16,548 bases of DNA from Escherichia phage vB_KppS-Ant (LR881103), one strand, 5' to 3'; shown: positions 2,036 through 11,950, numbered from the stretch's first letter. Numbers and translations: made by a program. The notes: generated by a model not told the origin, from the sequence alone.

Positions 2036-4333
2036 ATGGCAGGTAAATCATTAGGCACTCTCACCATTGACCTGATCGCCAGAACCGGCGGTTTTGTCCA
2101 GGGTATGGATAAAGCCGAACGTTCATCACAAAAATGGCGGGATAACGTTAAAAAAGATGCCGCAGCCGTGGGTTCAGCCCTTGCTGCTGTTGGCACAGCC
2201 GCAGCAGCGGCGGCTATCGGTGTTAGTGCCGCTGGTATTGCACTGGTAAAAAATACCTCAGAGCAGATCACTGAAACTGATCGCTGGGCTAAATCGCTAA
2301 AAATGTCTACTCAGGATTTGCTTTCATGGCAGTTTGCTGCTGAGAAAGCAGGGTTGACCGGGGATAATATTGCTGACATCTTCAAGGATATTAACGATAA
2401 AGTCGGCGATGCTGTCCTGAACAAGTCAGGTGAGGCTGCTCAGGCTCTGGATACTCTCGGGCTTTCAGCTGAGAAACTGGCCCAGCAATCCCCTGATAAG
2501 CAGTTACTGGCTATCAGCTCGGCATTGCAAAAAATCCCCTCTCAGGCCGGGAAAACTAATATCCTCGAAAGCCTGGGGAATGACCTGTCAAAAATGCTGC
2601 CGTTGTTCGACAACAATAACGAGAAGCTGAAGCAGTTTATCCAGCTGTCAAAAGATTTTGGTGTCGCTCCGCCCCAGGAGGATATTGATAACCTGGTTAA
2701 GGTTAATCAGTTTTTCCAGGATATTGAGAGCAGTGCACAGGGGTTAAAGATCGAGATTGCCAGTGGCCTGGCTAAAGTAGACCTCTCACCGATTCAGGAT
2801 GGACTTGATGATATCCGGGATGTGTTTACCGATCCTGCTGTTCTGTCAGGTCTGGCAAAGCTGGTCGGAGGGATGGCGGAACTTGTTGGCTGGATGGGTA
2901 AGCTAAGTTCTGAATCTGCTAATTTTCTCAGCCATATATTTGAAGTGCCTGACAGGTTTAAGGCGGGTGGCTGGTACGAGTTTGAAAAAAATCAGAGATT
3001 AGGAGCAATAGCAGATACGCTTCAATCAGATTTAGGGGGAATAACTAAACCATCTTCAAACTCTGAGTTGCCAATAAATAATAACCTGCTCCCCGGGCAG
3101 AGCAATCAGAAACAAACTCAAAAGCCTGATGCTGAGGCAAAAAAACTTGAAAGTGCCTATAAAGCCGTAGAACAGTCATATTTAAAGCAAATTGCGCTGG
3201 TGGATCAGCTAACCGGGAAAACCAAAGACGCCACTGAAGTAGAAAAACTACATTTCGATTTAGTATCTGGTCGTCTGGTTGGGATAAATAAAGAACAGCA
3301 AATCAGGCTTGAGGGCTTGGCCTCAGAAGTTGATAAATATAACGCGTTGTCAAAATTTCGAGATTTGCAGGATGAGTTATTAACTCCAGAAGAAAAATTA
3401 CTTAAAACGACGAGAGAACGTTTTGAAATATTAAAAGATATTCAGGGAATGAAGGGGATCAGCCCTGATGAATATAAAAAAGCAGCAGAAGCCATATCGA
3501 AAGATTCATTTACAGATATGCCTAAATTTAGTGGTCTTGATCCGATGTTTGGCGGTCAATCTGGAGAGTTAAGAAAAGTTGATGACGCACAGAAAGAACA
3601 GGAAAAATGGTATCAGAATCAGCTCGATTTGCTGGAACAGAACCGTCAGGCACGTTCTGACCTTAATGATGAGTGGGATGCCAGAGAGCTTGAACTGAAG
3701 AAAAAACACCAGGATGAAATGAATAAGCTCGATGAAGCCCGTAATCAGCTGATGTTGAGCAGTGTTGTCGATGGGCTTGGTTCTATGGTGGATTTGACCC
3801 GTACAGCTTTTGGTGAGCAATCAGGAGTATACAAAGCCGCGTTTGCAGTTCAGAAAGCCGCGGCTATTGCTCAGTCTGTTATCGCTATCCAGCAGGGGAT
3901 CGCGATGGCGGCTGCAAACCCTTTCCCGTACAACCTTGCAGCGATGGCCAGCGTAGCCGCTTCTACAGCCGGTATTGTGTCGAACATTGCGGCCGTGGGT
4001 ATGGCTCACGATGGTATTGATGCTGTTCCAGAAACCGGAACATGGCTTCTCCAGAAGGGCGAACGCGTAGTCACGGCGAATACCAGCGCGAAACTGGATG
4101 CGACCCTTAACCGTGTCGCCCAGCAATCCACTTCTGGTAATCAGATTTCCCAGGAATTTAATTTTAACGTTAATGGCGATCCTTCTGATGCTCAGATAGC
4201 CATGATGAAGAAAGCGGCCGCTGACGGTGCCAAGATGGGGTATCAAAAGGCGGTCAATTCAGTAATTACTGGTCAGGGTGATTTGCACAAGGCTCTGATG
4301 ACGAAAACTAATTCAGGCAGAAAAATAGGGTGA
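2036..4333 (+). CDS. Tail tape-measure-like protein (lambda gpH family architecture)
   Basis: 765 aa; N-terminal GTLTIDLIARTGGFVQGM segment followed by an Ala-rich hydrophobic stretch; long central charged Lys/Glu/Gln-rich helical region; C-terminal hydrophobic Ala/Gly-rich block then GIDAVPETGTWLLQKGERVVTANTS, which resembles the conserved C-terminal motif of lambda-family tape-measure proteins; strong RBS (AAGGAG) upstream. Confidence 0.65.
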   Translation: MAGKSLGTLTIDLIARTGGFVQGMDKAERSSQKWRDNVKKDAAAVGSALAAVGTAAAAAAIGVSAAGIALVKNTSEQITETDRWAKSLKMSTQDLLSWQFAAEKAGLTGDNIADIFKDINDKVGDAVLNKSGEAAQALDTLGLSAEKLAQQSPDKQLLAISSALQKIPSQAGKTNILESLGNDLSKMLPLFDNNNEKLKQFIQLSKDFGVAPPQEDIDNLVKVNQFFQDIESSAQGLKIEIASGLAKVDLSPIQDGLDDIRDVFTDPAVLSGLAKLVGGMAELVGWMGKLSSESANFLSHIFEVPDRFKAGGWYEFEKNQRLGAIADTLQSDLGGITKPSSNSELPINNNLLPGQSNQKQTQKPDAEAKKLESAYKAVEQSYLKQIALVDQLTGKTKDATEVEKLHFDLVSGRLVGINKEQQIRLEGLASEVDKYNALSKFRDLQDELLTPEEKLLKTTRERFEILKDIQGMKGISPDEYKKAAEAISKDSFTDMPKFSGLDPMFGGQSGELRKVDDAQKEQEKWYQNQLDLLEQNRQARSDLNDEWDARELELKKKHQDEMNKLDEARNQLMLSSVVDGLGSMVDLTRTAFGEQSGVYKAAFAVQKAAAIAQSVIAIQQGIAMAAANPFPYNLAAMASVAASTAGIVSNIAAVGMAHDGIDAVPETGTWLLQKGERVVTANTSAKLDATLNRVAQQSTSGNQISQEFNFNVNGDPSDAQIAMMKKAAADGAKMGYQKAVNSVITGQGDLHKALMTKTNSGRKIG

Positions 4334-4548
4334 TGAAGATGACAGAACTTGAAAGTTTATTTTACGAGATGATGCCGGGTCATATTGCCCACGCGATGAA
4401 AATTGAAGGGGCAAAAATTCTGGCAGAAAGTACGCAGAAAGAGGCCGAACGTCAGTCAACGTTAACCGGCCTGTCTTCTGAGCTTATCATTCAAACTGCG
4501 ATTCAGGCGATCTCTATGCAGATGAAAAACTGGCAAGTAGTCCACTGA
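4330..4548 (+). CDS. Hypothetical small protein (72 aa), start overlaps the tape-measure stop
   Basis: ORF with GTG/ATG starts overlapping the upstream TGA; no recognisable motif. Confidence 0.4.
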   Translation: MMKMTELESLFYEMMPGHIAHAMKIEGAKILAESTQKEAERQSTLTGLSSELIIQTAIQAISMQMKNWQVVH

Positions 4549-4597
4549 CAAGGTTATGGCCCTCAATCGGGGGCCACACTACCAACTGAGGTGCTGC

Positions 4598-4786
4598 ATG
4601 TTAAAAAGAGAAGCTTTAGAGTCTGCCATTATCAGTGCAGCAAAATTGCAGGGGCATGATCTTAACGGGCGAGATCGTCTTATGGTGCGTAATCGCGTTG
4701 CCACTTGCTTGGCTGCGAAAGAACGCCACCGGCAAAGGATGGATGCCGAACCGTATCAATGGAGAAAGCCGGAAAGGCCAAGGTGA
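4598..4786 (+). CDS. Hypothetical small basic protein (about 62 aa; internal ATG of ORF 4556..4786)
   Basis: GAGG 6 nt upstream of ATG at 4598 (the ATG at 4556 has only a 2-nt spacer after AAGG); followed by an intrinsic terminator. Confidence 0.3.
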   Translation: MLKREALESAIISAAKLQGHDLNGRDRLMVRNRVATCLAAKERHRQRMDAEPYQWRKPERPR

Positions 4787-4849: not shown

Positions 4850-4871
4850 TGTATAAACATATGTATAAACA
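4850..4871. repeat. Tandem pair of TGTATAAACA decamers (left copy of a 22-bp composite repeat)
   Basis: tgtataaaca-ta-tgtataaaca at 4850..4871, repeated 21/22 at 5083..5104. Confidence 0.7.
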
Positions 4872-4875
4872 CTAA

Positions 4876-4915
4876 TAAAAAAGGCGCTTCCCCATGCCGA
4901 AGAGCGCCTTTTTAA
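4876..4915. terminator. Bidirectional intrinsic terminator-like hairpin flanked by A-run and T-run
   Basis: aaaaaAGGCGCT...AGCGCCTTttt: 8-bp stem (4881..4888 with 4903..4910) with A-tract upstream and T-tract downstream. Confidence 0.5.
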
Positions 4916-5082
4916 ACAAGCATTTAACTGATTGGTATCAGTTCATGCCGTACTGTCATATTAGCTGTTTTCATGCTTTTAGATGATTTTAATATTCATA
5001 TAATAATCAATGTGTTGTATAAATTCATGCCTGTATATTGTTCCAGTGTTTTTCTTTGTTTATGCTATTATGCAAGCAATTC

Positions 5083-5104
5083 TGTATAAACATTTGTATA
5101 AACA
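5083..5104. repeat. Tandem pair of TGTATAAACA decamers (right copy), just upstream of the integrase start
   Basis: tgtataaaca-tt-tgtataaaca at 5083..5104; candidate integrase arm-type sites. Confidence 0.7.
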
Positions 5105-5122
5105 CTTTGGGCTGGGTGGTCT

Positions 5123-6343
5123 ATGGCTGGCGAACTTAACAAACTGAGCGACAGGAAGTTAAAGGGATTACATGGTATCCCGGCCAGTAAGATTGAGTTC
5201 TATGCTGATGGTGCCGGGCTGAGCGCCAAGGTAACTAAAGCTGGTGGTATTAGCTGGGTGTTTACTTACCGACTCGACGGGCAGAAGCTGCATCGTCTTA
5301 CTCTGGGACGATACCCGGATATGAGCCTCAAAGAGGCCCGTTCTTCGCGTGATAAATGCCGCCAATGGCTGGCCTCAGGTAAAGATCCAAAGCACCAGTT
5401 GGCGCTGACCACTCAGGAAACGCTTAAACCGGTCACTGTTAAGGAAGCTATAGAATACTGGATACGCGAATATGCAGAAGAGAACCGCGCGAATGTTGAA
5501 CGGCACAAAGCGGAGCTGCGAAAACACATTTATCCTTATATAGGGAAAATGGCGCTCGCTGACTGTGAAACACGATACTGGCTTGACTGCTTTGACAGGA
5601 TGAAAAAGAAAACTCCAGTCGCCGCAGGTTATGTGTTCCAGATGTGCAAACAAGCCCTGAAATTCTGCCGGGTTCGTCGCTATGCTGTGAGTACCGCGCT
5701 TGAAGATTTAACAATTCCAGATGTCGGTAAAAAACAGGCAAAAAAAGACCGGGTATTAAACGATAAAGAGGCTGGCGATTTATGGGCTGCCATTTCCTCT
5801 GGCACTTGCTTCATGCCTTACTACACCAGGCTACTGACAATCTTAATGGTGTTTGGGTGCCGAACGCAGGAGGCCAGGCTATCAGAGTGGAGTGAATGGG
5901 ATATGGATGCCTGGGTCTGGACAGTTCCCAAAGAGCACAGCAAGGGCGGCGAGAAGATTGTAAGACCTGTGCCGGATGCCATGCGCAAATTCATTGAAAT
6001 ACTGCATGATGAAACGAAACGATCCGGCCTTTTGCTTGGGTCGGTTAAAGGCAGTGAAGCGGTAAGTCAGTGGGGCCGCGGTGTTTATAAAAAGCTGGGG
6101 CATTCTGAACCATGGACACTGCACGATCTAAGACGAACTTTAGCAACGCATATGAATAATATGGGTATAGCACCACACGTTGTCGAACAGTTGTTGGGGC
6201 ACTCAATGCCGGGAGTTATGGCGATTTATAACCGTAGTCTGTACTTGCCTGAGAAACTGGATGCGTTGAATAAATGGTATGACAGACTTGATATTTTATC
6301 AGGTGGATTCACTAACATTGTTTTGTTGAATAGGGCTGAATAA
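5123..6343 (+). CDS. int: Tyrosine site-specific integrase, P4-type (N-terminal arm-binding domain plus C-terminal catalytic domain)
   Basis: 406 aa; N-terminal L.D.K...GL.....G..W.F.YR..G.....LG.YP..SL.EAR...D pattern of P4-like integrases; C-terminal HDLRRT ... LLGH ... Y catalytic signature. Confidence 0.9.
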   Translation: MAGELNKLSDRKLKGLHGIPASKIEFYADGAGLSAKVTKAGGISWVFTYRLDGQKLHRLTLGRYPDMSLKEARSSRDKCRQWLASGKDPKHQLALTTQETLKPVTVKEAIEYWIREYAEENRANVERHKAELRKHIYPYIGKMALADCETRYWLDCFDRMKKKTPVAAGYVFQMCKQALKFCRVRRYAVSTALEDLTIPDVGKKQAKKDRVLNDKEAGDLWAAISSGTCFMPYYTRLLTILMVFGCRTQEARLSEWSEWDMDAWVWTVPKEHSKGGEKIVRPVPDAMRKFIEILHDETKRSGLLLGSVKGSEAVSQWGRGVYKKLGHSEPWTLHDLRRTLATHMNNMGIAPHVVEQLLGHSMPGVMAIYNRSLYLPEKLDALNKWYDRLDILSGGFTNIVLLNRAE

Positions 6344-6993
6344 TGACTAGTTTTCTAAAATTGGGTATTTTCGAGCGAGAAGCCAAAGCCCCGGAACTCA
6401 ATATTAAACAACTTGCACTACTTATGTGTGGGGTAGATCCGACAGTTAAAACTGCTGATATCCCTGAGGCGAAAGTTGAAGCTTACAATATATACTATCG
6501 ACAACTGAGTAGATGGTTATCAGCATCTAAATTATTTCGAGGTGGAAACTCAACAGCCTATCCCGCAGACTATATGTTTGCTCTGGCATATCCTCTTATT
6601 GATGAAGATATTACACCACAACCCATAAAGGACAGATGCCTTGCAGCGGTGGCTATAATTGCTAATCAAAACAAAGGAAAAGAGCATCTTTATGCTATGG
6701 GAGGGGATGAGCTTTTACAGGTCGGAATTGCATTGAAAAGCAGCAAACGCGGCTTGCATCGTAAAGAAGATGAAAAGGAATATAATGATAAATTAATGGG
6801 GATGCTGGTCAAGCTTATAGCACATAAGATAGGCCATTCGTTTGGCACCTCTAAAAAACCAAGCATCTCGGCTATTTTAAACGAACTATATAAATTAGCT
6901 GATGAGGAAGGTATATCTAAAACTGGATTATCCAAATCAGCAATATATGATAAAATTCGCAAGGCATTAAATTCGATTTATTATACGGAATGA
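6343..6993 (+). CDS. Hypothetical protein (216 aa), AT-rich cargo gene translationally coupled to int
   Basis: Start overlaps the int stop (TAATG); codon composition visibly more AT-rich than the neighbouring core genes; no recognisable catalytic motif. Confidence 0.55.
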   Translation: MTSFLKLGIFEREAKAPELNIKQLALLMCGVDPTVKTADIPEAKVEAYNIYYRQLSRWLSASKLFRGGNSTAYPADYMFALAYPLIDEDITPQPIKDRCLAAVAIIANQNKGKEHLYAMGGDELLQVGIALKSSKRGLHRKEDEKEYNDKLMGMLVKLIAHKIGHSFGTSKKPSISAILNELYKLADEEGISKTGLSKSAIYDKIRKALNSIYYTE

Positions 6994-7129
6994 ATATTAT
7001 TTTGCAGTGTTAGTGGGTGTTATTTATATTTCATGTGAAAATACTAATTAATTATATTTGTTGGAGCTTTTGGCGATTCTATGATCGCCAAGGAGATTCA
7101 ATTGTTATATTTGATGTTTATTACAGTTA

Positions 7130-7229
7130 CATTCAACAGCATTCAACAGCATTCAACAGCATTCAACGACACGTAACGACACGTAATGACACGTAACGGC
7201 ACCCGACAGCACCTAACAATACCTAGCTC
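7130..7229. repeat. Array of ten contiguous 10-bp units (CATTCAACAG x3, then progressively diverged copies)
   Basis: cattcaacag at 7130, 7140, 7150; cattcaacga, cacgtaacga, cacgtaatga, cacgtaacgg, cacccgacag, cacctaacaa, tacctagctc follow with strict 10-bp period. Confidence 0.8.
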
Positions 7230-7270
7230 CATCCACGGTCTCTACTAGGTCATTACTTGCTAACTTTTTC

Positions 7271-7337
7271 CATCTTTGTTCATGGTTATTCATCACTGTT
7301 CATCAGCGTTCATCATTGTTCATCTTTGTTATGAACA
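7271..7337. repeat. Second 10-bp-periodic array: TGTTCATC-type units (about 5 direct copies plus 1 inverted copy)
   Basis: catctttgtt catggttatt catcactgtt catcagcgtt catcattgtt catctttgtt then atgaaca; the unit is one mismatch from the TGTTCACC octamer clustered at 11720..11950. Confidence 0.75.
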
Positions 7338-7379
7338 ATCCAAGGCGAATCAAATCGTTAAAGAACGGTGATCTTCGGC

Positions 7380-7583
7380 GAGTTATTGAAATTCATGATT
7401 TTTTCTCTCGCGACAGCCGTTGAAATTACTGTGGAAATTGTTTTCAACAGGGGAGCGTTATCTTGATGGAATTTCTATCTTTCAATGGAATTGCGTGTTC
7501 TTTTAAAGGATTCCAGAATCAATGGAAATGCTGGTCGTTTATCCACTAATCTCTTCGCATAACATTGAAACAGTGGAGGCAGC
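7380..7583 (+). promoter_or_regulatory. alpA upstream regulatory region with dispersed TGGAA(A/T)T and TTGAAATT repeats
   Basis: gtggaaattg (7431), tggaattt (7467), caatggaattg (7483), caatggaaatg (7520); ttgaaatt at about 7386 and 7421; promoter not confidently placed. Confidence 0.3.
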
Positions 7584-7868
7584 ATGCAAAATATAACCTT
7601 TACCCCGCCAAATCCTGAACAACGCCGCACCCTTTTAGAAGAGTACGGCTTTAAGTTTGATCGCCGAATCCGTGAAGATGAATGCAGCGAGATCACCAGT
7701 CTTTCCCGTTCCAGCCGCTGGAAGATGGAACAGCAGGGGCGCTTCCCTCCGCGCTGTCACTTTGGCCGCAATAGCTGTGCTTGGCTTCTTTCGGATGTGC
7801 TCTGGTGGGTTCGTAATCCGCCAGCAGTAGAGAACGTCAATAACCCATACAGCCGTAAATCTGCTTAA
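7584..7868 (+). CDS. alpA: AlpA-family phage transcriptional regulator (excisionase-like HTH)
   Basis: 94 aa; ...SEITSLSRSSRWKMEQQGRFPPRCHFGRNSCAWLLSDVLWWVRN matches the AlpA-family HTH pattern; GGAGG RBS; position downstream of int as in P4-like and PICI elements. Confidence 0.7.
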   Translation: MQNITFTPPNPEQRRTLLEEYGFKFDRRIREDECSEITSLSRSSRWKMEQQGRFPPRCHFGRNSCAWLLSDVLWWVRNPPAVENVNNPYSRKSA

Positions 7869-7888: not shown

Positions 7889-8581
7889 ATGAAAAAGATT
7901 AATGCCCTCCACGGGCAGGGATTCGCTCACCCTGTAGCCAGCCAGCACGATATTTCAGCGAACCGTAAACAGGTTATTGCCGGTGACTGGTCGCCCATTA
8001 ATCGCGGTGAATTTACGCTTGCCGATCTGGGGTTGCGCCACAACGGTAACGGGCTGGTGTGGCTGCGTTCCGGCGTGTCCGTGCATGAGGCAGACCATGA
8101 TGCAGGGATAAGCGGCAAGGACAAGACCAAAGGAAGGGTTAACGGCCTTCCTTTTGAATTTGTCGGCCAGTGGCAGGAATACCCGACTAAACGCAGCTTT
8201 GCCGTTTCAGTATCTACGGAACTACGGCGCCAGTATTACCCGGACGATGCCGCATTCAGTAAGGCAATGCGTGAGGCTGGTTATGTTCCGGTGCGCACTC
8301 GCAAACTGACCGGAAAGGATGCTCGTTTTTGGCTGTACCGTGTAACGGGCAATGATAAGGGGGTTGTCGCAGCAGAATCCGCGCCACACAAGGCTTGCGC
8401 GCCAGTTGTCCAGACCATATCTAAGCCTCATCCGTGGTTTAAGCGTGTGGCACTCGATGGTAAATGGCAGTACGTCTACGCAGATCACATCCGCTTTCTG
8501 ACTAAAAAGCGTCATCGCGTCGATGGTGTTCGGGTTCAGGGGTATACCGCTGGCGGGCTGAAAGTGGAGGCTATTGTATGA
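7889..8581 (+). CDS. Hypothetical protein (230 aa) between alpA and the replication module
   Basis: Protein-like composition; stop overlaps next potential start (ATGA); function not recognisable from sequence. Confidence 0.55.
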   Translation: MKKINALHGQGFAHPVASQHDISANRKQVIAGDWSPINRGEFTLADLGLRHNGNGLVWLRSGVSVHEADHDAGISGKDKTKGRVNGLPFEFVGQWQEYPTKRSFAVSVSTELRRQYYPDDAAFSKAMREAGYVPVRTRKLTGKDARFWLYRVTGNDKGVVAAESAPHKACAPVVQTISKPHPWFKRVALDGKWQYVYADHIRFLTKKRHRVDGVRVQGYTAGGLKVEAIV

Positions 8582-8593
8582 CAGGCAAAACAA

Positions 8594-8615
8594 AGGCGGC
8601 CATGCCGGGCCGCCT
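8594..8615. other. GC-rich hairpin (8-bp stem, 6-nt loop) right after the 7889..8581 stop; terminator-like for minus-strand readthrough
   Basis: AGGCGGCC-atgccg-GGCCGCCT; the U-tract lies on the minus-strand side (complement of aaaacaaa at 8586..8593). Confidence 0.35.
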
Positions 8616-8923
8616 GAGTCTCAACGCTTTACTGAAACATCGCCAGATTACCAGGCTTGCCGCTGGTGGTCAAACCTTGAGCCAACGAAATCCGTACGCA
8701 CAAATTAACCGCGTACGTTTAACGTACGGACATCGCAATCCATTGAAGGAACTTGATTATAACGAATCGTTAGAATCGGCTGGCAACAAACACGAACAGT
8801 ATTCGGGTTCGCCTGAACATCAACACTGCTTAGGTTCAGAGGTTCCGACGAATAACGTAGAGAGCTGCGAAGATAACCAACCCTCTTTAAGAGGTGAGCC
8901 TCTGCACAACGCATTAAGAGTTG

Positions 8924-8950
8924 CGCAAAACAACCCCTCTTTAAGAGGGG
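8924..8950 (-). terminator. Rho-independent terminator for the minus-strand RHH gene
   Basis: Minus-strand reading: CCCCTCTT-a-AAGAGGGG followed by ttgtttt, about 35 nt downstream of the 8982 stop; a second similar palindrome CCTCTTTAAGAGG lies at 8881..8894. Confidence 0.55.
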
Positions 8951-8981
8951 CAGTTCACAGCATTACGGAGAGTAACCCTGT

Positions 8982-9185
8982 TCAGCTTTCAGGTTCCGAT
9001 CTGGCTTTCTTGCGCTGCTCAGATTTGAGTTTGCGCCCGCAGGCATCCAGAACCCACGCAGAGAAATTAGCACCGGCGTTATCTGCTTTCTCTCGCTCTA
9101 CGCTGGCGTCAATCTCTTCAATAAGTTCGTGCGGAAATCGTATCTTTTTCTGCGCTGATTTAGCGTTTACTGCCTTAGTAGCCAT
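8982..9185 (-). CDS. Small ribbon-helix-helix-like DNA-binding protein (67 aa), candidate repressor
   Basis: KIRFPHELIEEIDASV...NFSAWVLDACGRKL fits a beta-strand / helix / helix RHH (Arc/CopG-like) layout; strong RBS AGGAGG 4 nt before ATG; own terminator; divergent from the replication operon promoter. Confidence 0.55.
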   Translation of the reverse strand: MATKAVNAKSAQKKIRFPHELIEEIDASVEREKADNAGANFSAWVLDACGRKLKSEQRKKARSEPES

Positions 9186-9198
9186 TTACCCTCCTGCG

Positions 9199-9271
9199 TA
9201 TAGTGAGGGTACACCATATCAGAAAAATAGCTTGACGTGTACCCCCACCGAAAATATAGTGGGGGTGCACC
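9199..9271 (+). promoter_or_regulatory. Near-consensus sigma70 promoter (TTGACG-17-TATAGT) overlapped by three operator-like 12-mers GTG(A/G)GGGT(A/G)CAC
   Basis: -35 TTGACG 9232..9237, 17-nt spacer, -10 TATAGT 9255..9260; 12-mers at 9203..9214 (+), 9237..9248 (inverted) and 9259..9270 (+); 17-bp direct repeat tatagtgagggtacacc / tatagtgggggtgcacc. Confidence 0.55.
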
Positions 9272-9363
9272 TTGAGGTTGAAGATACTCAAGATACAGCG
9301 AAGCCCGGCAGTGTTACCAGCACTAACCGGGCCTCTGACCACAACGTAACTGAGGCTTACATC

Positions 9364-9552
9364 ATGGCTTGTATACAGCATACCCAAACTCGCCCCAAAT
9401 ATCAGTATCGTTTTCTTGCGCTGAGCGCCATCGGGCGCAACGTCATTCACATCACCGCTACCACTGAGCGCGAAGCCCGTGAGCAATCACCGGATGGATG
9501 CGTGATGGTATTCGCTGGTCGTCTGCCAGTTCGGGAGGGGCACCATGCGTGA
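9364..9552 (+). CDS. Possible small leader protein (about 62 aa), 3' portion of the long ORF 8578..9552
   Basis: ATG at 9364 with GAGG 8 nt upstream, downstream of the 9232..9260 promoter; sequence MACIQHTQTRPKYQYRFLALSAIGRNVIHITATTEREAREQ... looks more protein-like than the upstream part of the frame. Confidence 0.3.
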   Translation: MACIQHTQTRPKYQYRFLALSAIGRNVIHITATTEREAREQSPDGCVMVFAGRLPVREGHHA

Positions 9553-9739: not shown

Positions 9740-9954
9740 GACAGGTTCCTTTTGAAGTCCTGATGCACGCTGAAAATGCCCTTTCTGAAAGCGAAGGAGC
9801 CTATGAGGTTCTCAGCATGTGGCTAGACAGTATTCCTGAAAGCGAGGAGTTCCACGGTGAAGCGTGCAAGGTAAGCGCAATCATGTCGCTGCTGCATAAA
9901 TCTATCGGCGAGCTGGTGAAAGCGCGGGAGGCTTACAGTGAAAAACGCGCCTAA
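9736..9954 (+). CDS. Hypothetical small acidic protein (72 aa)
   Basis: ATGA overlap with the upstream ORF; Glu-rich; overlaps the helicase start. Confidence 0.45.
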   Translation: MRQVPFEVLMHAENALSESEGAYEVLSMWLDSIPESEEFHGEACKVSAIMSLLHKSIGELVKAREAYSEKRA

Positions 9955-11689
9955 TGTGAAAACCCTCCCGCGCGACAAAATGGAGGAGGCCATCATCTTT
10001 GCTGGAACGGGAGCATGGAAAGCCGCTCAGGATTACCAGAAAGGGAAGGGCGAGCATGGAGACGATGTTCCGCCTGTGGTTCTGGATCACACCCAACTGG
10101 CGGAATTACCACACCTGCGCATTGTTGATAAAGGCCGTCGATTTGCCCGTGTCTGTCAGGCCGGGCTTATCGAGCAAAACCAAATCAGCATGATTGCAAA
10201 TAAGTTGTGTGAGGCTGGCGTTACCAATGCTGAGTTTATCAACGAACAAGGCGAGAAAGAGGACTGGACGCCATTGATGAAACGTCTGGAAGACGAGCCC
10301 CTTATGGTGACTACGAGGGGAAGTGCTACGCCAGCGCTTAACCAGATGGGAGCCAGCCAGCGCGGGGAAGTTCTGCTTGCTCATTACAATGGCAATCTGG
10401 CGATCCATGCTGATTCCGACACGGTTCATCATTACAACGGCGTGGTGTGGGTTCCGCTTTCGGATAAAGAGCTGCAGCGAGAAATGGCGCAGATTTTTAT
10501 TGATTCCGAAGTCGCCTATTCGCAGAACGCGATTAAATCCGCTGTCGATACAATGAAGCTGGGCCTCCCGGTAATGGGTAACACAGCCCGTAACCTGATT
10601 GGTTTCAGCAACGGGGTTTTTGATACCCGGTTAGGCCAATTTCGACCGCATGATAAAAAGGACTGGCTTATCGTTGCGAGCGAATTGCCATTCAGCGAAC
10701 CAGCAGAAGGTGAAACTCTGGCAACCCATGCGCCTAACTTCTGGAAATGGCTCCGCCGCTCTGTGGCGGATAATGACCGAAAAGCAGACCGCGTACTGTC
10801 TGCGCTGTTTATGGTGCTGGCGAACCGGTACGACTGGCAGCTGTTTCTTGAGGTAACGGGGCCGGGCGGAAGTGGTAAAAGTGTCATGGCTGAGATCTGC
10901 ACGATGCTGGCGGGCAAGGCCAATACGGTATCGGCGAGCATGGCGGCGCTGGAGAACCCAAGGGAAAGGGCGCTGGTAGTTGGCTATTCGCTGATTATCA
11001 TGCCGGATATGACCCGGTACGCTGGCGACGGCGCAGGGATTAAAGCTATCACTGGCGGGGATAAGGTGGCTATCGACCCAAAACACAAAGCGCCATATTC
11101 AACCCGTATCCCGGCGGTGGTGCTGGCCGTCAATAACAATGCTATGACGTTCAGTGACCGCAGCGGCGGTATTTCAAGGCGACGGGTGATTTTCAACTTC
11201 ACCGAAGTAGTGCCGGAAAACGAACGCGATCCGATGCTGGCCGAGAAGATTGAAGGAGAGCTTGCGGTAATCATCCGGCATCTGCTTGTGCGCTTTTCCA
11301 GCCAGAACGAAGCCAAACAGCTTTTGCATGAGCAGCAGAAATCAGAAGAAGCGCTGGCCATCAAACGTGAAGGGGATTCACTGGTGGACTTTTGCGGATA
11401 CCTGATGGCTTCGGTGGTTTGTGATGGAATGCTGATTGGTAATGCCGAGATCGTGCCATTCAGCCCGCGCCGTTATCTGTATCACGCTTATCTGGCTTAC
11501 ATGCGGGCCAATGGTCTTAGCAAGCCTGTATCGTTAATGCGGTTCGGTACGGATATGCCAGGCGCAATGGCTGAATATGGCAAGGAGTACCAGAAGCGCA
11601 AAACTAAAAATGGCATAAGATCGAACGTCACCCTGCATGATGATTCAGAAGACTGGATGCCAATGTGTACCGATACAACAAAAGAATAA
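9938..11689 (+). CDS. Replication protein: P4-alpha / D5-family SF3 helicase (phage/plasmid primase C-terminal type), probable origin-binding initiator
   Basis: 583 aa; Walker A GPGGSGKS about 300 aa in; D5_N-like region upstream (HYNGVVWVP); GTG start with GGGAGG RBS; iteron cluster immediately downstream. Confidence 0.8.
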   Translation: MKNAPNVKTLPRDKMEEAIIFAGTGAWKAAQDYQKGKGEHGDDVPPVVLDHTQLAELPHLRIVDKGRRFARVCQAGLIEQNQISMIANKLCEAGVTNAEFINEQGEKEDWTPLMKRLEDEPLMVTTRGSATPALNQMGASQRGEVLLAHYNGNLAIHADSDTVHHYNGVVWVPLSDKELQREMAQIFIDSEVAYSQNAIKSAVDTMKLGLPVMGNTARNLIGFSNGVFDTRLGQFRPHDKKDWLIVASELPFSEPAEGETLATHAPNFWKWLRRSVADNDRKADRVLSALFMVLANRYDWQLFLEVTGPGGSGKSVMAEICTMLAGKANTVSASMAALENPRERALVVGYSLIIMPDMTRYAGDGAGIKAITGGDKVAIDPKHKAPYSTRIPAVVLAVNNNAMTFSDRSGGISRRRVIFNFTEVVPENERDPMLAEKIEGELAVIIRHLLVRFSSQNEAKQLLHEQQKSEEALAIKREGDSLVDFCGYLMASVVCDGMLIGNAEIVPFSPRRYLYHAYLAYMRANGLSKPVSLMRFGTDMPGAMAEYGKEYQKRKTKNGIRSNVTLHDDSEDWMPMCTDTTKE

Positions 11690-11719: not shown

Positions 11720-11950
11720 GTGTTCACCACTGTTCACCATGTATAAAAATCATTAAATAACAATATGTTAATGGGTGAACACTTTTTTATGAAGTGTTCA
11801 CCAAGTATTCACCTGTTCACCCTGTTTTATCTTTTCCTCAGTTTGAGGTGAAGGGTTGGGTGAACACTAGTGAACACCTGAAAGAATAGTATTCACCCTG
11901 TAACTATATGAATTTAATTAATAAATTATCAAAGGTGAACAGGTGAACAC
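11720..11950. promoter_or_regulatory. Origin-like iteron cluster: at least 10 copies of TGTTCACC / GGTGAACA (and the TATTCACC variant) in both orientations in AT-rich DNA
   Basis: Copies at about 11721, 11731, 11774 (inv), 11794, 11805 (variant), 11814, 11859 (inv), 11869 (inv), 11889 (variant), 11934 (inv), 11942 (inv). Confidence 0.65.

What the first reader, a model, noticed from the sequence alone, without database searches (positions are those of the whole stretch)
7130..7337. Two adjacent 10-bp-periodic tandem arrays between the cargo gene and alpA; the second resembles the ori iteron
Array 1 (7130..7229) is ten contiguous decamers starting with three perfect CATTCAACAG units and decaying gradually. 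Array 2 (7271..7330) is six decamers each containing (T/C)GTTCAT, ending in an inverted copy. One copy per helical turn places sites on one DNA face, typical of iterons or centromere-like sites. Array 2 is one mismatch from the ori octamer, so it may be a crr-like second helicase-binding site; array 1 may bind AlpA, integrase or the RHH protein.
Basis: partly seen in the sequence, partly recalled or inferred. Interest (0 to 1): 0.6.

Follow-up and report, generated by a model that had tools for sequence, protein, structure and literature searches.

The report
Hypervariable decamer arrays upstream of alpA
Two real, fast-evolving arrays of 10-bp repeats lie in the control region of the master activator gene of a phage satellite; they travel with one unknown neighbouring gene, not with the helicase, AlpA or integrase, and are most likely that protein's binding sites.

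Summary
TRF finds 10-bp arrays at 7130-7202 (decaying to about 7229) and 7271-7330, the latter followed by an inverted copy.

The window is a capsid-forming phage-inducible chromosomal island (PICI) that integrates at fis. The arrays lie in the 590-bp gap between orf216 and alpA.

- **Variability:** in 21 near-identical elements both arrays change copy number, always by whole decamers, and faster than point mutation.
- **Conservation:** every more distant Orf216 homologue examined (14 loci) also has 9-10-bp arrays in this gap, with drifting unit sequences. TTCA spaced exactly 10 bp apart on the alpA strand recurs in 7 of 12 lineages.
- **Natural swaps:** one E. coli island has the same integrase (98%) and AlpA (97%) and the same att site. 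Window 6287-7560 is replaced there by another cassette, and the arrays are absent.
- **Origin:** origin iterons change with replicase type, but the arrays do not follow them.

So the helicase (crr-like), AlpA, integrase and RHH readings are not supported.

Best explanation (inferred, not shown): these are phased operator arrays for cassette-encoded Orf216, which controls the alpA promoter.

Rivals are a helper-phage factor, host TorR (array 2 resembles tor boxes), or a functionless repeat tract.

The parts
6287..7560 (+). Swappable 'orf216 cassette': last 57 nt of int, orf216, and the whole non-coding region up to 23 nt before the alpA ATG
   Evidence: blastn of window against L027. Homology runs 4869-6286 (97%) and resumes at 7561 (93%). 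Between these points L027 carries an unrelated 1.2-kb segment (309-aa ORF, 138-bp gap, no arrays). The same right-hand breakpoint, 7561, is seen against L025/L026.
6343..6993 (+). orf216: 216-aa protein of unknown family, start overlapping the int stop codon; candidate binder of the arrays
   Evidence: ORF list. It hits only phrog_30524, of unknown function, with no Pfam, NCBIfam or PADLOC family. The family is tiny: 47 representatives among 1.8 billion proteins. It is always found in the order int, orf216, long gap, alpA. The AF2 model is all-alpha with pLDDT 83, and 91 for the C-terminal domain; neither has a significant fold match.
7070..7091 (.). Hairpin / palindrome TTGGCGAT-N6-ATCGCCAA just downstream of orf216
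   Evidence: the repeat finder I4. Read by eye, similar hairpins follow orf216 in L021 and L030. It was not called as a terminator by the scan.
7130..7229 (+). Array 1: ten contiguous decamers, young CATTCAACAG units at the 5' end decaying to CACGTAAYGA and CACCYAACAG types
   Evidence: TRF. In 21 close relatives CATTCAACAG occurs 0-9 times, CACGTAAYGA-type units 0-5 times and YACCYAACAG 1-7 times. The Serratia relative has CCCAACAGAC x3.4.
7230..7270 (.). Non-repetitive spacer between the arrays
   Evidence: It has the same length in all 21 close relatives, with a few SNPs. It is partly recognisable in L020, read by eye.
7271..7330 (+). Array 2: five contiguous decamers with core (T/C)GTTCAT / TTCAT; the conserved 'TTCA-type' array
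   Evidence: TRF. There are 3-7 units in close relatives, with homogenised variants such as TCATCACGGT x5. TTCA pairs exactly 10 bp apart on this strand occur in 7 of 12 lineages (16 pairs), against 0-1 at every other lag from 5 to 16.
7315..7339 (.). Inverted copy closing array 2: ATTGTTCAT-N7-ATGAACAAT
   Evidence: the repeat finder I1, 9 nt and 100% complementary.
7463..7532 (+). Proximal operator-like cluster: three direct TGGAA(A)T sites (GATGGAAT, TTTCAATGGAAT, CAATGGAAAT) plus inverted GGATTCCAGAATC
   Evidence: Read. This is the only part of the gap alignable across genera (75% to L020 and L023). It is present even where AlpA is of another type (L053, L055). It changes to TAGAAA / ATTCTTAA / ATTCTCAT in the three lineages whose Orf216 C-terminal helix has Y202 changed to D.
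7547..7552 (+). Putative -10 (TAATCT) of the alpA promoter. Inferred only; no good -35 is present.
   Evidence: Conserved ATCCAyTA..T block in relatives. Homology to other PICIs starts at 7561, as expected for a transcript start nearby. It was not found by the consensus scan.
7584..7868 (+). alpA: master activator / excisionase-family regulator, the gene downstream of the arrays
   Evidence: Pfam Phage_AlpA, E 5e-10. For its role see PMC6092414 and PMC11773190.

Best explanation
The two arrays are the distal part of a roughly 570-bp cis-regulatory region. This region belongs to a mobile cassette (window 6287-7560) made of orf216 plus everything up to the alpA transcript start.

The arrays are runs of weak, helically phased binding sites: one site per 10 bp, in direct repeat. 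Recombination directionality factors such as Apl use the same architecture (PMC7498355); from my own knowledge, so do Cox and OmpR-family regulators.

The most likely binder is the cassette's own protein, Orf216. Orf216 would also recognise the conserved TTTCA(A/C)TGGAAT sites next to the alpA promoter.

Proposed mechanism (inferred): cooperative binding of Orf216 along the arrays, and between arrays and proximal sites, sets the threshold at which alpA fires. alpA is the switch that starts excision, replication and packaging of the island when a helper phage is active. Gain and loss of whole decamers by replication slippage keeps helical phase while changing the number of sites, so occupancy can be tuned quickly.

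**Shown here:**
- the arrays exist;
- they are hypervariable in 10-bp steps;
- they are conserved as a feature;
- they are linked exclusively to orf216;
- they are not linked to AlpA, Int or the replicase.

**Inferred, not shown:** that any protein binds the arrays, that the binder is Orf216, and the direction of regulation.
For: 1. **Feature conservation despite sequence turnover.** The 12 lineage representatives analysed (51-75% Orf216 identity) and 2 remote ones all carry 9-10-bp arrays in the orf216-alpA gap. Lag 10 or its multiple 20 is the top self-match lag in 7 of 8 lineages tested, with lag-10 z of 3.5-10.3.
2. **A conserved oriented core.** TTCA at exactly 10-bp spacing occurs in 7 of 12 lineages and at essentially no other spacing. 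It is strand-biased: TGAA in only 2 of 12.
3. **Cassette linkage.** L027 has Int 98%, AlpA 97% and the same att site, but another cassette and no arrays. L025/L026 have AlpA 98%, a DUF6387 gene, a 95-bp gap and no arrays.
4. **Independence from other genes.** The arrays persist with three replicase types, with different genes after alpA, and with different right-end cargo.
5. **Covariation at the proximal sites.** The proximal motif covaries with a residue of the Orf216 C-terminal helix, STI(Y/D)KKI. It does not covary with AlpA: Pectobacterium has window-like AlpA but a D-type Orf216 and altered sites, while Edaphovirga has a different AlpA but Y-type Orf216 and unaltered sites.
6. **Shared half-site.** The proximal sites begin with TTTCA, the same core as the arrays.
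7. **Precedent.** Direct repeats one helical turn apart, needing at least 3 adjacent copies for cooperative binding, are the documented operator architecture of recombination directionality factors (PMC7498355).
8. **Biological context.** alpA is autoactivated and switched on by an unidentified helper-phage signal, so its upstream region is the island's sensory hub (PMC6092414, PMC11773190).
Against: - No binding data exist.
- The covariation rests on three lineages and probably two events.
- Array sequences drift much more than the proximal sites, and several lineages carry arrays with no TTCA core (for example TGCATAATC, GCCAGTTGGT). One protein may therefore not explain all arrays.
- Distances from the arrays to the promoter vary from about 230 to 470 bp.
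- Extreme copy-number polymorphism is also what a functionless slippage-prone tract would show.
Confidence: 0.45

Rival explanations
1. The arrays are landing pads for a helper-phage protein. An oligomerising Cox/Apl/Xis-like factor or another early protein would bind phased direct repeats and switch on alpA. The rapid turnover of unit sequence would then track changing helper phages.
For: alpA transcription is induced by an unidentified helper-phage factor (PMC6092414). Recombination directionality factors bind exactly this architecture, including at regulatory sites away from att (PMC7498355). From my own knowledge, P2 Cox activates a promoter of satellite P4 through repeated boxes. Several unrelated arrays can sit in one gap, for example six in Serratia, which could reflect several helpers.
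Against: This does not explain why the arrays are found only with orf216 and never in other cassettes with the same AlpA. The array-2 pattern was found in IMG/VR only in this same island family, not in phages. A TTCA core conserved across genera argues for a conserved rather than a changing partner.
Confidence: 0.15
2. The arrays are a slippage-prone minisatellite with no sequence-specific partner. They would be either neutral, or act only as spacer or flexible DNA between the orf216 hairpin and the alpA promoter.
For: There are 17 array haplotypes in 21 near-identical elements. Of 18 pairs with at most 1 SNP in 1036 bp of flank, 14 differ in the arrays. Young perfect units lie next to decayed ones. 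Unit sequences are unrelated between some lineages.
Against: Neutral slippage does not predict the observed regularities. The period is 10 bp (once 9) in essentially every lineage and every independent array. The arrays are retained in all lineages. The same TTCA core recurs at exact 10-bp spacing on one strand in 7 of 12 lineages.
Confidence: 0.15
3. Array 2 is a run of tor boxes bound by the host response regulator TorR. This would couple the alpA region to TMAO / anaerobic signalling, or titrate TorR.
For: The typical tor box is CTGTTCATAT and box 3 is CCGTTCATCC (PMC9239176). In E. coli K-12, boxes 1 and 2 are contiguous decamers, the same layout as array 2. Array-2 units match the tor box at 6-8 of 10 positions. 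The four-decamer score of 28/40 exceeds all 200 shuffles, whose maximum is 26. From my own knowledge, TorR is inhibited by TorI, a prophage excisionase, so a link between phages and TorR has precedent.
Against: Similarity to tor boxes exceeds shuffles in only 4 of 14 lineages. In Xenorhabdus, Brenneria and Proteus the core drifts to GTTTCA / TTTCAAT, which is unexpected for a conserved host protein. All units differ from the consensus at positions 9-10. Across the whole window, matches to the tor box are not enriched: 17 against 13.6 expected. Array 1 is not explained.
Confidence: 0.1
4. The arrays are AlpA autoregulatory sites. AlpA belongs to the excisionase family, whose members bind phased direct repeats.
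For: AlpA activates its own promoter in EcCICFT073. The architecture fits operators of recombination directionality factors. TTCATGC occurs three times in the att arm next to int.
Against: AlpA proteins 97-98% identical to the window's sit behind 95- and 138-bp gaps with no arrays. The arrays and proximal sites persist where AlpA is a different 71-74-aa HTH_17-type protein. The att-proximal TTCATGC copies are not phased and are also present in islands without arrays.
Confidence: 0.08
5. Array 2 is a crr-like second binding site for the primase-helicase, or the arrays are integrase arm sites.
For: Two units are one mismatch from the ori octamer. From my own knowledge, satellite P4 has a second iteron cluster, crr.
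Against: There are 8 exact ori octamers at 11721-11949 and none in the arrays; the mismatch is always the same C-to-T change. Relatives with other replicases and other ori iterons keep GTTC/TTCA arrays that do not resemble their own ori. L027 has a 91%-identical helicase region (nucleotide level) and a 98%-identical Int, yet no arrays. The Int arm motif is TGTATAAAC and flanks att about 2.2 kb away.
Confidence: 0.04

Closest known systems
Operator arrays of recombination directionality factors (186 Apl, P2 Cox, lambda Xis, P4 Vis)
   Same: Five to ten direct repeats spaced one helical turn apart, contiguous. They can lie in a regulatory region away from att in a temperate or satellite element, and weak individual sites imply cooperative filament-like binding (PMC7498355).
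   Different: The arrays do not co-occur with the element's own factor of this family (AlpA). No matching phased copy sits at att. The copy number is far more polymorphic than described for those systems. The candidate binder (Orf216, 216 aa, all-alpha, no family) is not a small winged-helix protein.
tor boxes / OmpR-family tandem decamer sites (TorR at torCAD)
   Same: Contiguous decamers with core (C/T)(T/C)GTTCAT; 6-8 of 10 identity to CTGTTCATAT; box 1 and box 2 are directly adjacent, like the array units.
   Different: There are five units plus an inverted copy instead of 2+1+1. Positions 9-10 always differ. The resemblance is not conserved across the family, and no tor-regulated gene is nearby.
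P4 ori / crr type I iterons bound by the alpha primase-helicase
   Same: The element is a satellite with a D5/P4-alpha-like helicase and a TGTTCACC iteron origin; array 2 shares TGTTCA.
   Different: No exact iteron is present, there is no covariation with replicase or ori, and the arrays are absent from an island with the same helicase.
Plasmid centromere / repressor repeat arrays (R1 parC-ParR, pSK41 parC, pSM19035 omega heptads) - from my own knowledge
   Same: Many short contiguous direct repeats upstream of a promoter, bound cooperatively by a small dimeric protein, with variable copy number between relatives.
   Different: Pfam scans of 20 of the window's larger ORFs found no partition NTPase. 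The island is integrated rather than a plasmid, and Orf216 is not a ribbon-helix-helix protein by any test here.
Promoter-located variable-number tandem repeats (contingency loci)
   Same: Copy-number polymorphism faster than point mutation, with a unit length that is not a multiple of three, upstream of a regulatory gene.
   Different: A 10-bp unit preserves helical phase rather than switching promoter spacing on and off. The arrays lie more than 200 bp upstream of the putative promoter.

Membership tests
P4 crr-like helicase-binding iteron cluster | Contains the same iteron as the origin | tested here: not met
   There are 8 exact TGTTCACC at 11721-11949 and 0 in 7130-7340. Two units are TGTTCATC.
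P4 crr-like helicase-binding iteron cluster | Repeat sequence follows the replicase / ori specificity in relatives | tested here: not met
   Ori iterons are TTGGTTCA (L021), GGTAGAC (L023) and CTGTGCACC (L024). The arrays of these loci are unrelated to them.
P4 crr-like helicase-binding iteron cluster | Bound by the helicase; needed in cis for replication | not testable with these tools
   Needs EMSA and replication assays.
Operator array of a recombination directionality factor (Apl/Cox/Xis/Vis type) | At least 3 adjacent direct repeats spaced 10-11 bp apart | tested here: met
   TRF period 10, with 10 and 5-6 units. Architecture as described in PMC7498355.
Operator array of a recombination directionality factor (Apl/Cox/Xis/Vis type) | Co-occurs with, and follows, the element's own factor of this family (AlpA) | tested here: not met
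   The same AlpA occurs without arrays (L025, L027). Arrays occur with a different AlpA type (L053, L055).
Operator array of a recombination directionality factor (Apl/Cox/Xis/Vis type) | Similar phased recognition sequences at the att site | tested here: inconclusive
   The att arm has TTCAT four times, three of them as TTCATGC, at irregular spacing of 25-29 bp. These copies are also present in islands without arrays.
Integrase arm-type sites | Lie in the attP arms and match the arm motif | tested here: not met
   The arm motif TGTATAAAC is doubled at 4850/4862 and 5083/5095, around att at 4935-4952. The arrays lie about 2.2 kb away with a different sequence.
Integrase arm-type sites | Co-occur with the integrase | tested here: not met
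   L027 has a 98%-identical Int and no arrays.
tor boxes (TorR sites) | Decamer matching CTGTTCATAT, in tandem | tested here: inconclusive
   Units match at 7, 6, 8, 6 and 8 of 10 positions. The contiguous layout is the same as torC box 1-box 2. The score exceeds shuffles in the window lineage.
tor boxes (TorR sites) | Conserved where the host regulator is conserved | tested here: not met
   Similarity to tor boxes exceeds shuffles in only 4 of 14 lineages. Presence of torR in the hosts was not tested.
Type II partition centromere (parC-like) | Adjacent adaptor and partition NTPase genes | tested here: not met
   Pfam scans of 20 of the window's larger ORFs found no ParM/ParA-like family.
Variable-number tandem repeat / contingency locus | Copy number differs between otherwise near-identical sequences | tested here: met
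   The region measures 138-268 bp, always 8 mod 10, with 17 haplotypes in 21 elements. Pairs with 0 flank SNPs differ by 40 bp.
Variable-number tandem repeat / contingency locus | Copy number changes expression of the adjacent gene | not testable with these tools
   Needs reporter assays with natural variants.

The most novel reading that the evidence does not exclude
Orf216, its decamer arrays and the TGGAAT sites form a previously unrecognised, exchangeable 'induction module' of Gram-negative phage-inducible islands. Orf216 would be a new-fold DNA-binding regulator: the missing repressor or sensor that holds alpA off until a helper-phage signal arrives. It would polymerise on slippage-tunable phased operators. 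Exchange of the cassette between the conserved int 3' end and the alpA 5' end would then re-programme which helper induces the island.
Probability: 0.25. Interest if true: 0.7.

Novelty: new variant of a known kind. Interest (0 to 1): 0.5.

Why it matters
How Gram-negative phage-inducible islands sense their helper phage is still open. The literature says only that an unidentified phage factor turns on alpA, and that no master repressor is known (PMC6092414).

This finding delimits a discrete, exchangeable 1.3-kb cassette that supplies the whole alpA control region in one group of islands. The cassette has an unknown protein and an unusual, fast-evolving array architecture.

That gives concrete reagents for testing the induction mechanism: Orf216, two arrays, a proximal site cluster, and natural copy-number variants. 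It would also be a natural example of operator copy number evolving faster than point mutation.

Tried and rejected
- **RNA readings.** Rfam gave no family at gathering threshold or at E up to 1 on 6900-7650, so no known RNA element (for example a P4 CI/C4-type immunity RNA) was detected. Any coding reading across the arrays is excluded because 10-bp indels shift the frame, and no credible small ORF was found.
- **Promoter and terminator scan.** No terminator was called. The only promoter-like hit near alpA overlaps its ATG.
- **Similar DNA elsewhere.** In 5426 E. coli genomes the gap occurs in just 6, all the same island. The phage collection has no match to the gap. The array-2 pattern in IMG/VR hits only this island family.
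- **Array 1 versus array 2.** I considered whether they are inverted copies of each other (shared AACAG/CTGTT) or direct copies (shared TTCA-C). Both registers are possible, and neither was decisive.
- **Not done.** DNA curvature was not computed, because I had no reliable parameter table to hand. Presence of torR in the Klebsiella, Xenorhabdus and other hosts was not checked.

Full report
**1. The observation**

Tandem Repeats Finder reports three period-10 arrays:

| Coordinates | Copies | Match | Score |
|---|---|---|---|
| 7130-7167 | 3.8 | 100% | 76 |
| 7165-7202 | 3.8 | 89% | 62 |
| 7271-7330 | 6.0 | 76% | 64 |

Read directly:
- **Array 1** is CATTCAACAG x3, followed by seven progressively diverged decamers ending near 7229.
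- **Array 2** is five decamers carrying TTCAT, four of them (T/C)GTTCAT.
- **Array 2 is closed** by a perfect 9-nt inverted copy, ATTGTTCAT-N7-ATGAACAAT.

Self-match at lag 10 across the 590-bp gap has z = 10.3 against shuffles. The description is therefore correct, apart from 'six units each with (T/C)GTTCAT'.

**2. Context**

The window is a circularly permuted capsid-forming phage-inducible chromosomal island (PICI). Its genes:

| Coordinates | Feature |
|---|---|
| 23-2024 | terS, terL |
| 2036-4333 | tape-measure-like ORF |
| 5123-6343 | int |
| 6343-6993 | orf216 |
| 6994-7583 | the gap holding the arrays |
| 7584-7868 | alpA |
| 9938-11689 | D5/P4-alpha-like primase-helicase |
| 11721-11949 | origin with TGTTCACC iterons |
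| from 12290 | capsid, protease, portal, head-completion protein, HNH |

In E. coli the island sits between yhdJ and fis. The att identity block published for 'fis PICIs' (PMC10111431) is at 4935-4952. K. pneumoniae ATCC 13883 carries a gap identical to the window's.

**3. Population behaviour**

In 21 elements whose Orf216 is 98-100% identical, the array region measures 138-268 bp and is always 8 mod 10.
- CATTCAACAG occurs 0-9 times.
- CACGTAAYGA-type units occur 0-5 times.
- YACCYAACAG occurs 1-7 times.
- Array-2 units occur 3-7 times, sometimes homogenised to one variant.

There are 17 array haplotypes. Of 18 pairs with at most 1 SNP in 1036 bp of flank, 14 differ in the arrays. Two pairs with identical flanks differ by 40 bp. 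The arrays are therefore a variable-number tandem repeat that changes faster than point mutation, in whole helical turns.

**4. Deep conservation of the feature**

Orf216 belongs to a very small family: 23 clusters in the 5.8-billion-protein set and 47 representatives among 1.8 billion proteins. All named members come from Enterobacterales.

In every locus fetched the order is int, orf216 (start overlapping or abutting the int stop), a 290-730-bp gap, then alpA. These loci are Rahnella, Yersinia, a second E. coli type, Proteus, two Xenorhabdus, Pectobacterium, Providencia, Serratia, Brenneria, Edaphovirga, one metagenome contig and two remote members.

Every gap contains arrays of period 10 (once 9). 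Serratia has up to six different arrays. Lag 10 or its multiple 20 is the top self-match lag in 7 of 8 lineages tested.

Unit sequences differ widely, but one core recurs. TTCA exactly 10 bp apart on the alpA strand occurs in 7 of 12 lineages (16 pairs). Every other spacing from 5 to 16 gives 0-1 pairs, and the complement TGAA occurs in only 2 lineages. Array 2 is the window's copy of this conserved TTCA-type array. Array 1 is more lineage-specific, although Serratia has CCCAACAGAC, which resembles the CACCCAACAG variants.

**5. Who owns the arrays: natural swap experiments**

| Candidate | Test | Result |
|---|---|---|
| Int, AlpA | E. coli 30821_1#117 (L027/L056): same island type at the same att site, Int 98% and AlpA 97% identical, helicase region 91% identical at nucleotide level | Window 6287-7560 is replaced by an unrelated 1.2-kb segment (309-aa ORF, 138-bp gap) with no arrays |
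| AlpA | Islands at gcd (L025/L026), AlpA 98% identical | A DUF6387 gene, a 95-bp gap, no arrays |
| AlpA | Edaphovirga and a remote relative | A different, 71-74-aa HTH_17-type AlpA, yet arrays and proximal sites are kept |
| Replicase | Relatives with three replicase architectures | Ori iterons differ (TGTTCACC, TTGGTTCA, GGTAGAC, CTGTGCACC), but the arrays never mirror the local ori |
| Right-end ORFs | E. coli OW1E2, which has the arrays | Lacks the window's right-end ORFs 2036-4786 |
| Integrase arm sites | Arm motif in the window | TGTATAAAC, doubled on both sides of att, unlike the arrays |

The only constant partner is orf216. The arrays are part of an orf216 cassette bounded by the conserved int 3' end and the alpA 5' end.

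**6. The rest of the cassette's non-coding DNA**

The last ~120 bp before alpA is the only part of the gap alignable between genera (about 75%). It holds three direct TGGAA(A)T sites, two of them as TTTCAATGGAAT-type quasi-palindromes (TTC-N4-GAA), and an inverted GGATTCCAGAATC.

After these comes a conserved ATCCAyTAatcT block that I read as a -10 without a good -35. That layout would fit a factor-dependent promoter (inference).

These sites are absent from the alternative cassettes. They change to TAGAAA / ATTCTTAA / ATTCTCAT in exactly the three lineages where the Orf216 C-terminal helix reads STI**D**KKI instead of STI**Y**KKI: Proteus, Providencia and Pectobacterium.

Pectobacterium keeps a window-like AlpA helix-turn-helix. 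The proximal motif therefore tracks Orf216, not AlpA. Because the proximal sites start with TTTCA, the arrays look like runs of one half-site of the same recognition element (inference).

**7. Orf216 itself**

The AF2 model is all-alpha (pLDDT 83), with a 50-residue central helix. The C-terminal three-helix domain models at pLDDT 91.

No significant fold or sequence match exists:
- Foldseek E is at best 0.9.
- PDB profile hits have E of at least 0.4.
- Pfam gives only a sub-threshold AlpA-like HTH, E 0.07, at residues 189-207.

The conserved C-terminal pattern G-L-S/G-K/R-S-T-x-Y-x-K-I looks like an HTH recognition helix; this is my reading, not a test. DNA binding by Orf216 is therefore inferred from genetics-by-comparison, not from its fold.

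**8. Mechanism proposed**

*What the literature establishes.* alpA is the autoactivated master switch of these islands. It is turned on by an unidentified helper-phage factor, and no repressor is known (PMC6092414, PMC11773190).

*Precedent for the architecture.* Direct repeats one turn apart, weak singly and cooperative when at least 3 are adjacent, are the documented operator form of recombination directionality factors such as Apl. These factors bend DNA and spread along it (PMC7498355).

*My proposal.* Orf216 is co-expressed with Int from the upstream operon. It binds the proximal sites and polymerises on, or loops to, the phased arrays, setting the firing threshold of the alpA promoter. 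Slippage in 10-bp steps changes the number of sites without changing their helical register.

Whether Orf216 represses or activates, and how the helper signal enters, is unknown. Confidence in this whole chain is about 0.45. Confidence in the narrower statement, that the arrays are cis-acting protein-binding sites belonging to the orf216 cassette, is about 0.65.

**9. Rivals**

- **Helper-phage oligomerising factor (0.15).** It fits the known biology but does not explain the exclusive linkage to orf216.
- **Functionless or merely structural repeat tract (0.15).** It fits the polymorphism but not the constant period, the retention, or the conserved oriented core.
- **Host TorR (0.10).** Array 2 is 6-8/10 identical per unit to the tor box CTGTTCATAT. 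E. coli torC boxes 1-2 are likewise contiguous decamers, and the window scores above all shuffles. However, the resemblance holds in only 4 of 14 lineages.
- **AlpA (0.08), and helicase or integrase (0.04).** Both are contradicted by the swaps in section 5.

**10. Comparison and novelty**

The architecture is that of known phased operator arrays, such as operators of recombination directionality factors, OmpR-family tandem sites and plasmid parC/omega repeats.

Three things are new:
- the context, a self-contained exchangeable cassette supplying the entire alpA control region;
- the partner, a protein family without any annotation or fold match;
- the extreme 10-bp-step polymorphism.

None of the PICI papers I found and read mentions orf216 or these arrays. 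I rate this a new variant of a known kind. Interest is 0.5: moderate as it stands, and higher if Orf216 proves to be the missing regulator of island induction.

Noticed in passing
window 4850-4871 and 5083-5104 (also 5016-5023); att block 4935-4952: A doubled motif TGTATAAACAnnTGTATAAACA lies 81 bp left and about 150 bp right of the att centre. The layout matches the doubled TGTATTGC motif described for helper-embedded PICIs. That paper states the motif was not found in fis PICIs. This fis PICI appears to have its own version, probably the Int arm sites.
   Followed up: partly
window 2036-4333: A 765-aa ORF directly after terL matches a tail tape-measure PHROG (phrog_2854, E 2e-176). This is unexpected in a capsid-forming island thought to borrow complete tails. 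Relatives carry other genes at this position: DUF3892 in OW1E2 and a 'tail assembly protein' in 30821_1#117.
   Followed up: partly
window 6343-6993 and homologues P0002-P0069: Orf216 is a very small, unannotated protein family (47 representatives among 1.8 billion proteins). Confident AF2 models have no fold match, and the gene is always coupled to a P4-type integrase gene.
   Followed up: yes
window 7276-7338; L058 2474-2533 (E. coli K-12 torR-torC gap): Array 2 closely resembles tandem tor boxes (TorR sites, CTGTTCATAT). Three matches with at most 2 mismatches cluster within 43 bp, one of them inverted.
   Followed up: partly
window 11721-11949; L021 12189-12654; L023 10859-11216; L024 12073-12303: The origins downstream of the replicase gene carry 8-12 short iterons in both orientations. 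Their sequence changes with replicase type (TGTTCACC, TTGGTTCA, GGTAGAC, CTGTGCACC).
   Followed up: partly
L025 3490-3523; L027 3488-3523: In the array-less cassettes the alpA ribosome-binding site GGAGG is preceded by its complement CCTCCAC about 13 nt upstream. This could be a hairpin that hides the ribosome-binding site. The window lacks it.
   Followed up: no
L027 3405-3445: The alternative 309-aa cassette has a strong palindrome, AGCATACTGATA-N13-TATCAGTATGCT, in its short gap before alpA. This suggests each cassette brings its own operator.
   Followed up: no
window 7539-7547: A DnaA-box-like sequence, TTATCCACT, overlaps the putative alpA promoter. The core ATCCAyTA is conserved in relatives.
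   Followed up: no
window 8578-9552: The 324-aa ORF has a C-terminal Icd-like (cell-division inhibitor) domain (NF033153, E 1.4e-15). In relatives this domain occurs as a separate small protein.
   Followed up: no
L051 3155-3885 (Serratia): The orf216-alpA gap is 731 bp long and contains at least six different 10-bp (one 20-bp) arrays in succession. It is the most extreme case seen.
   Followed up: no
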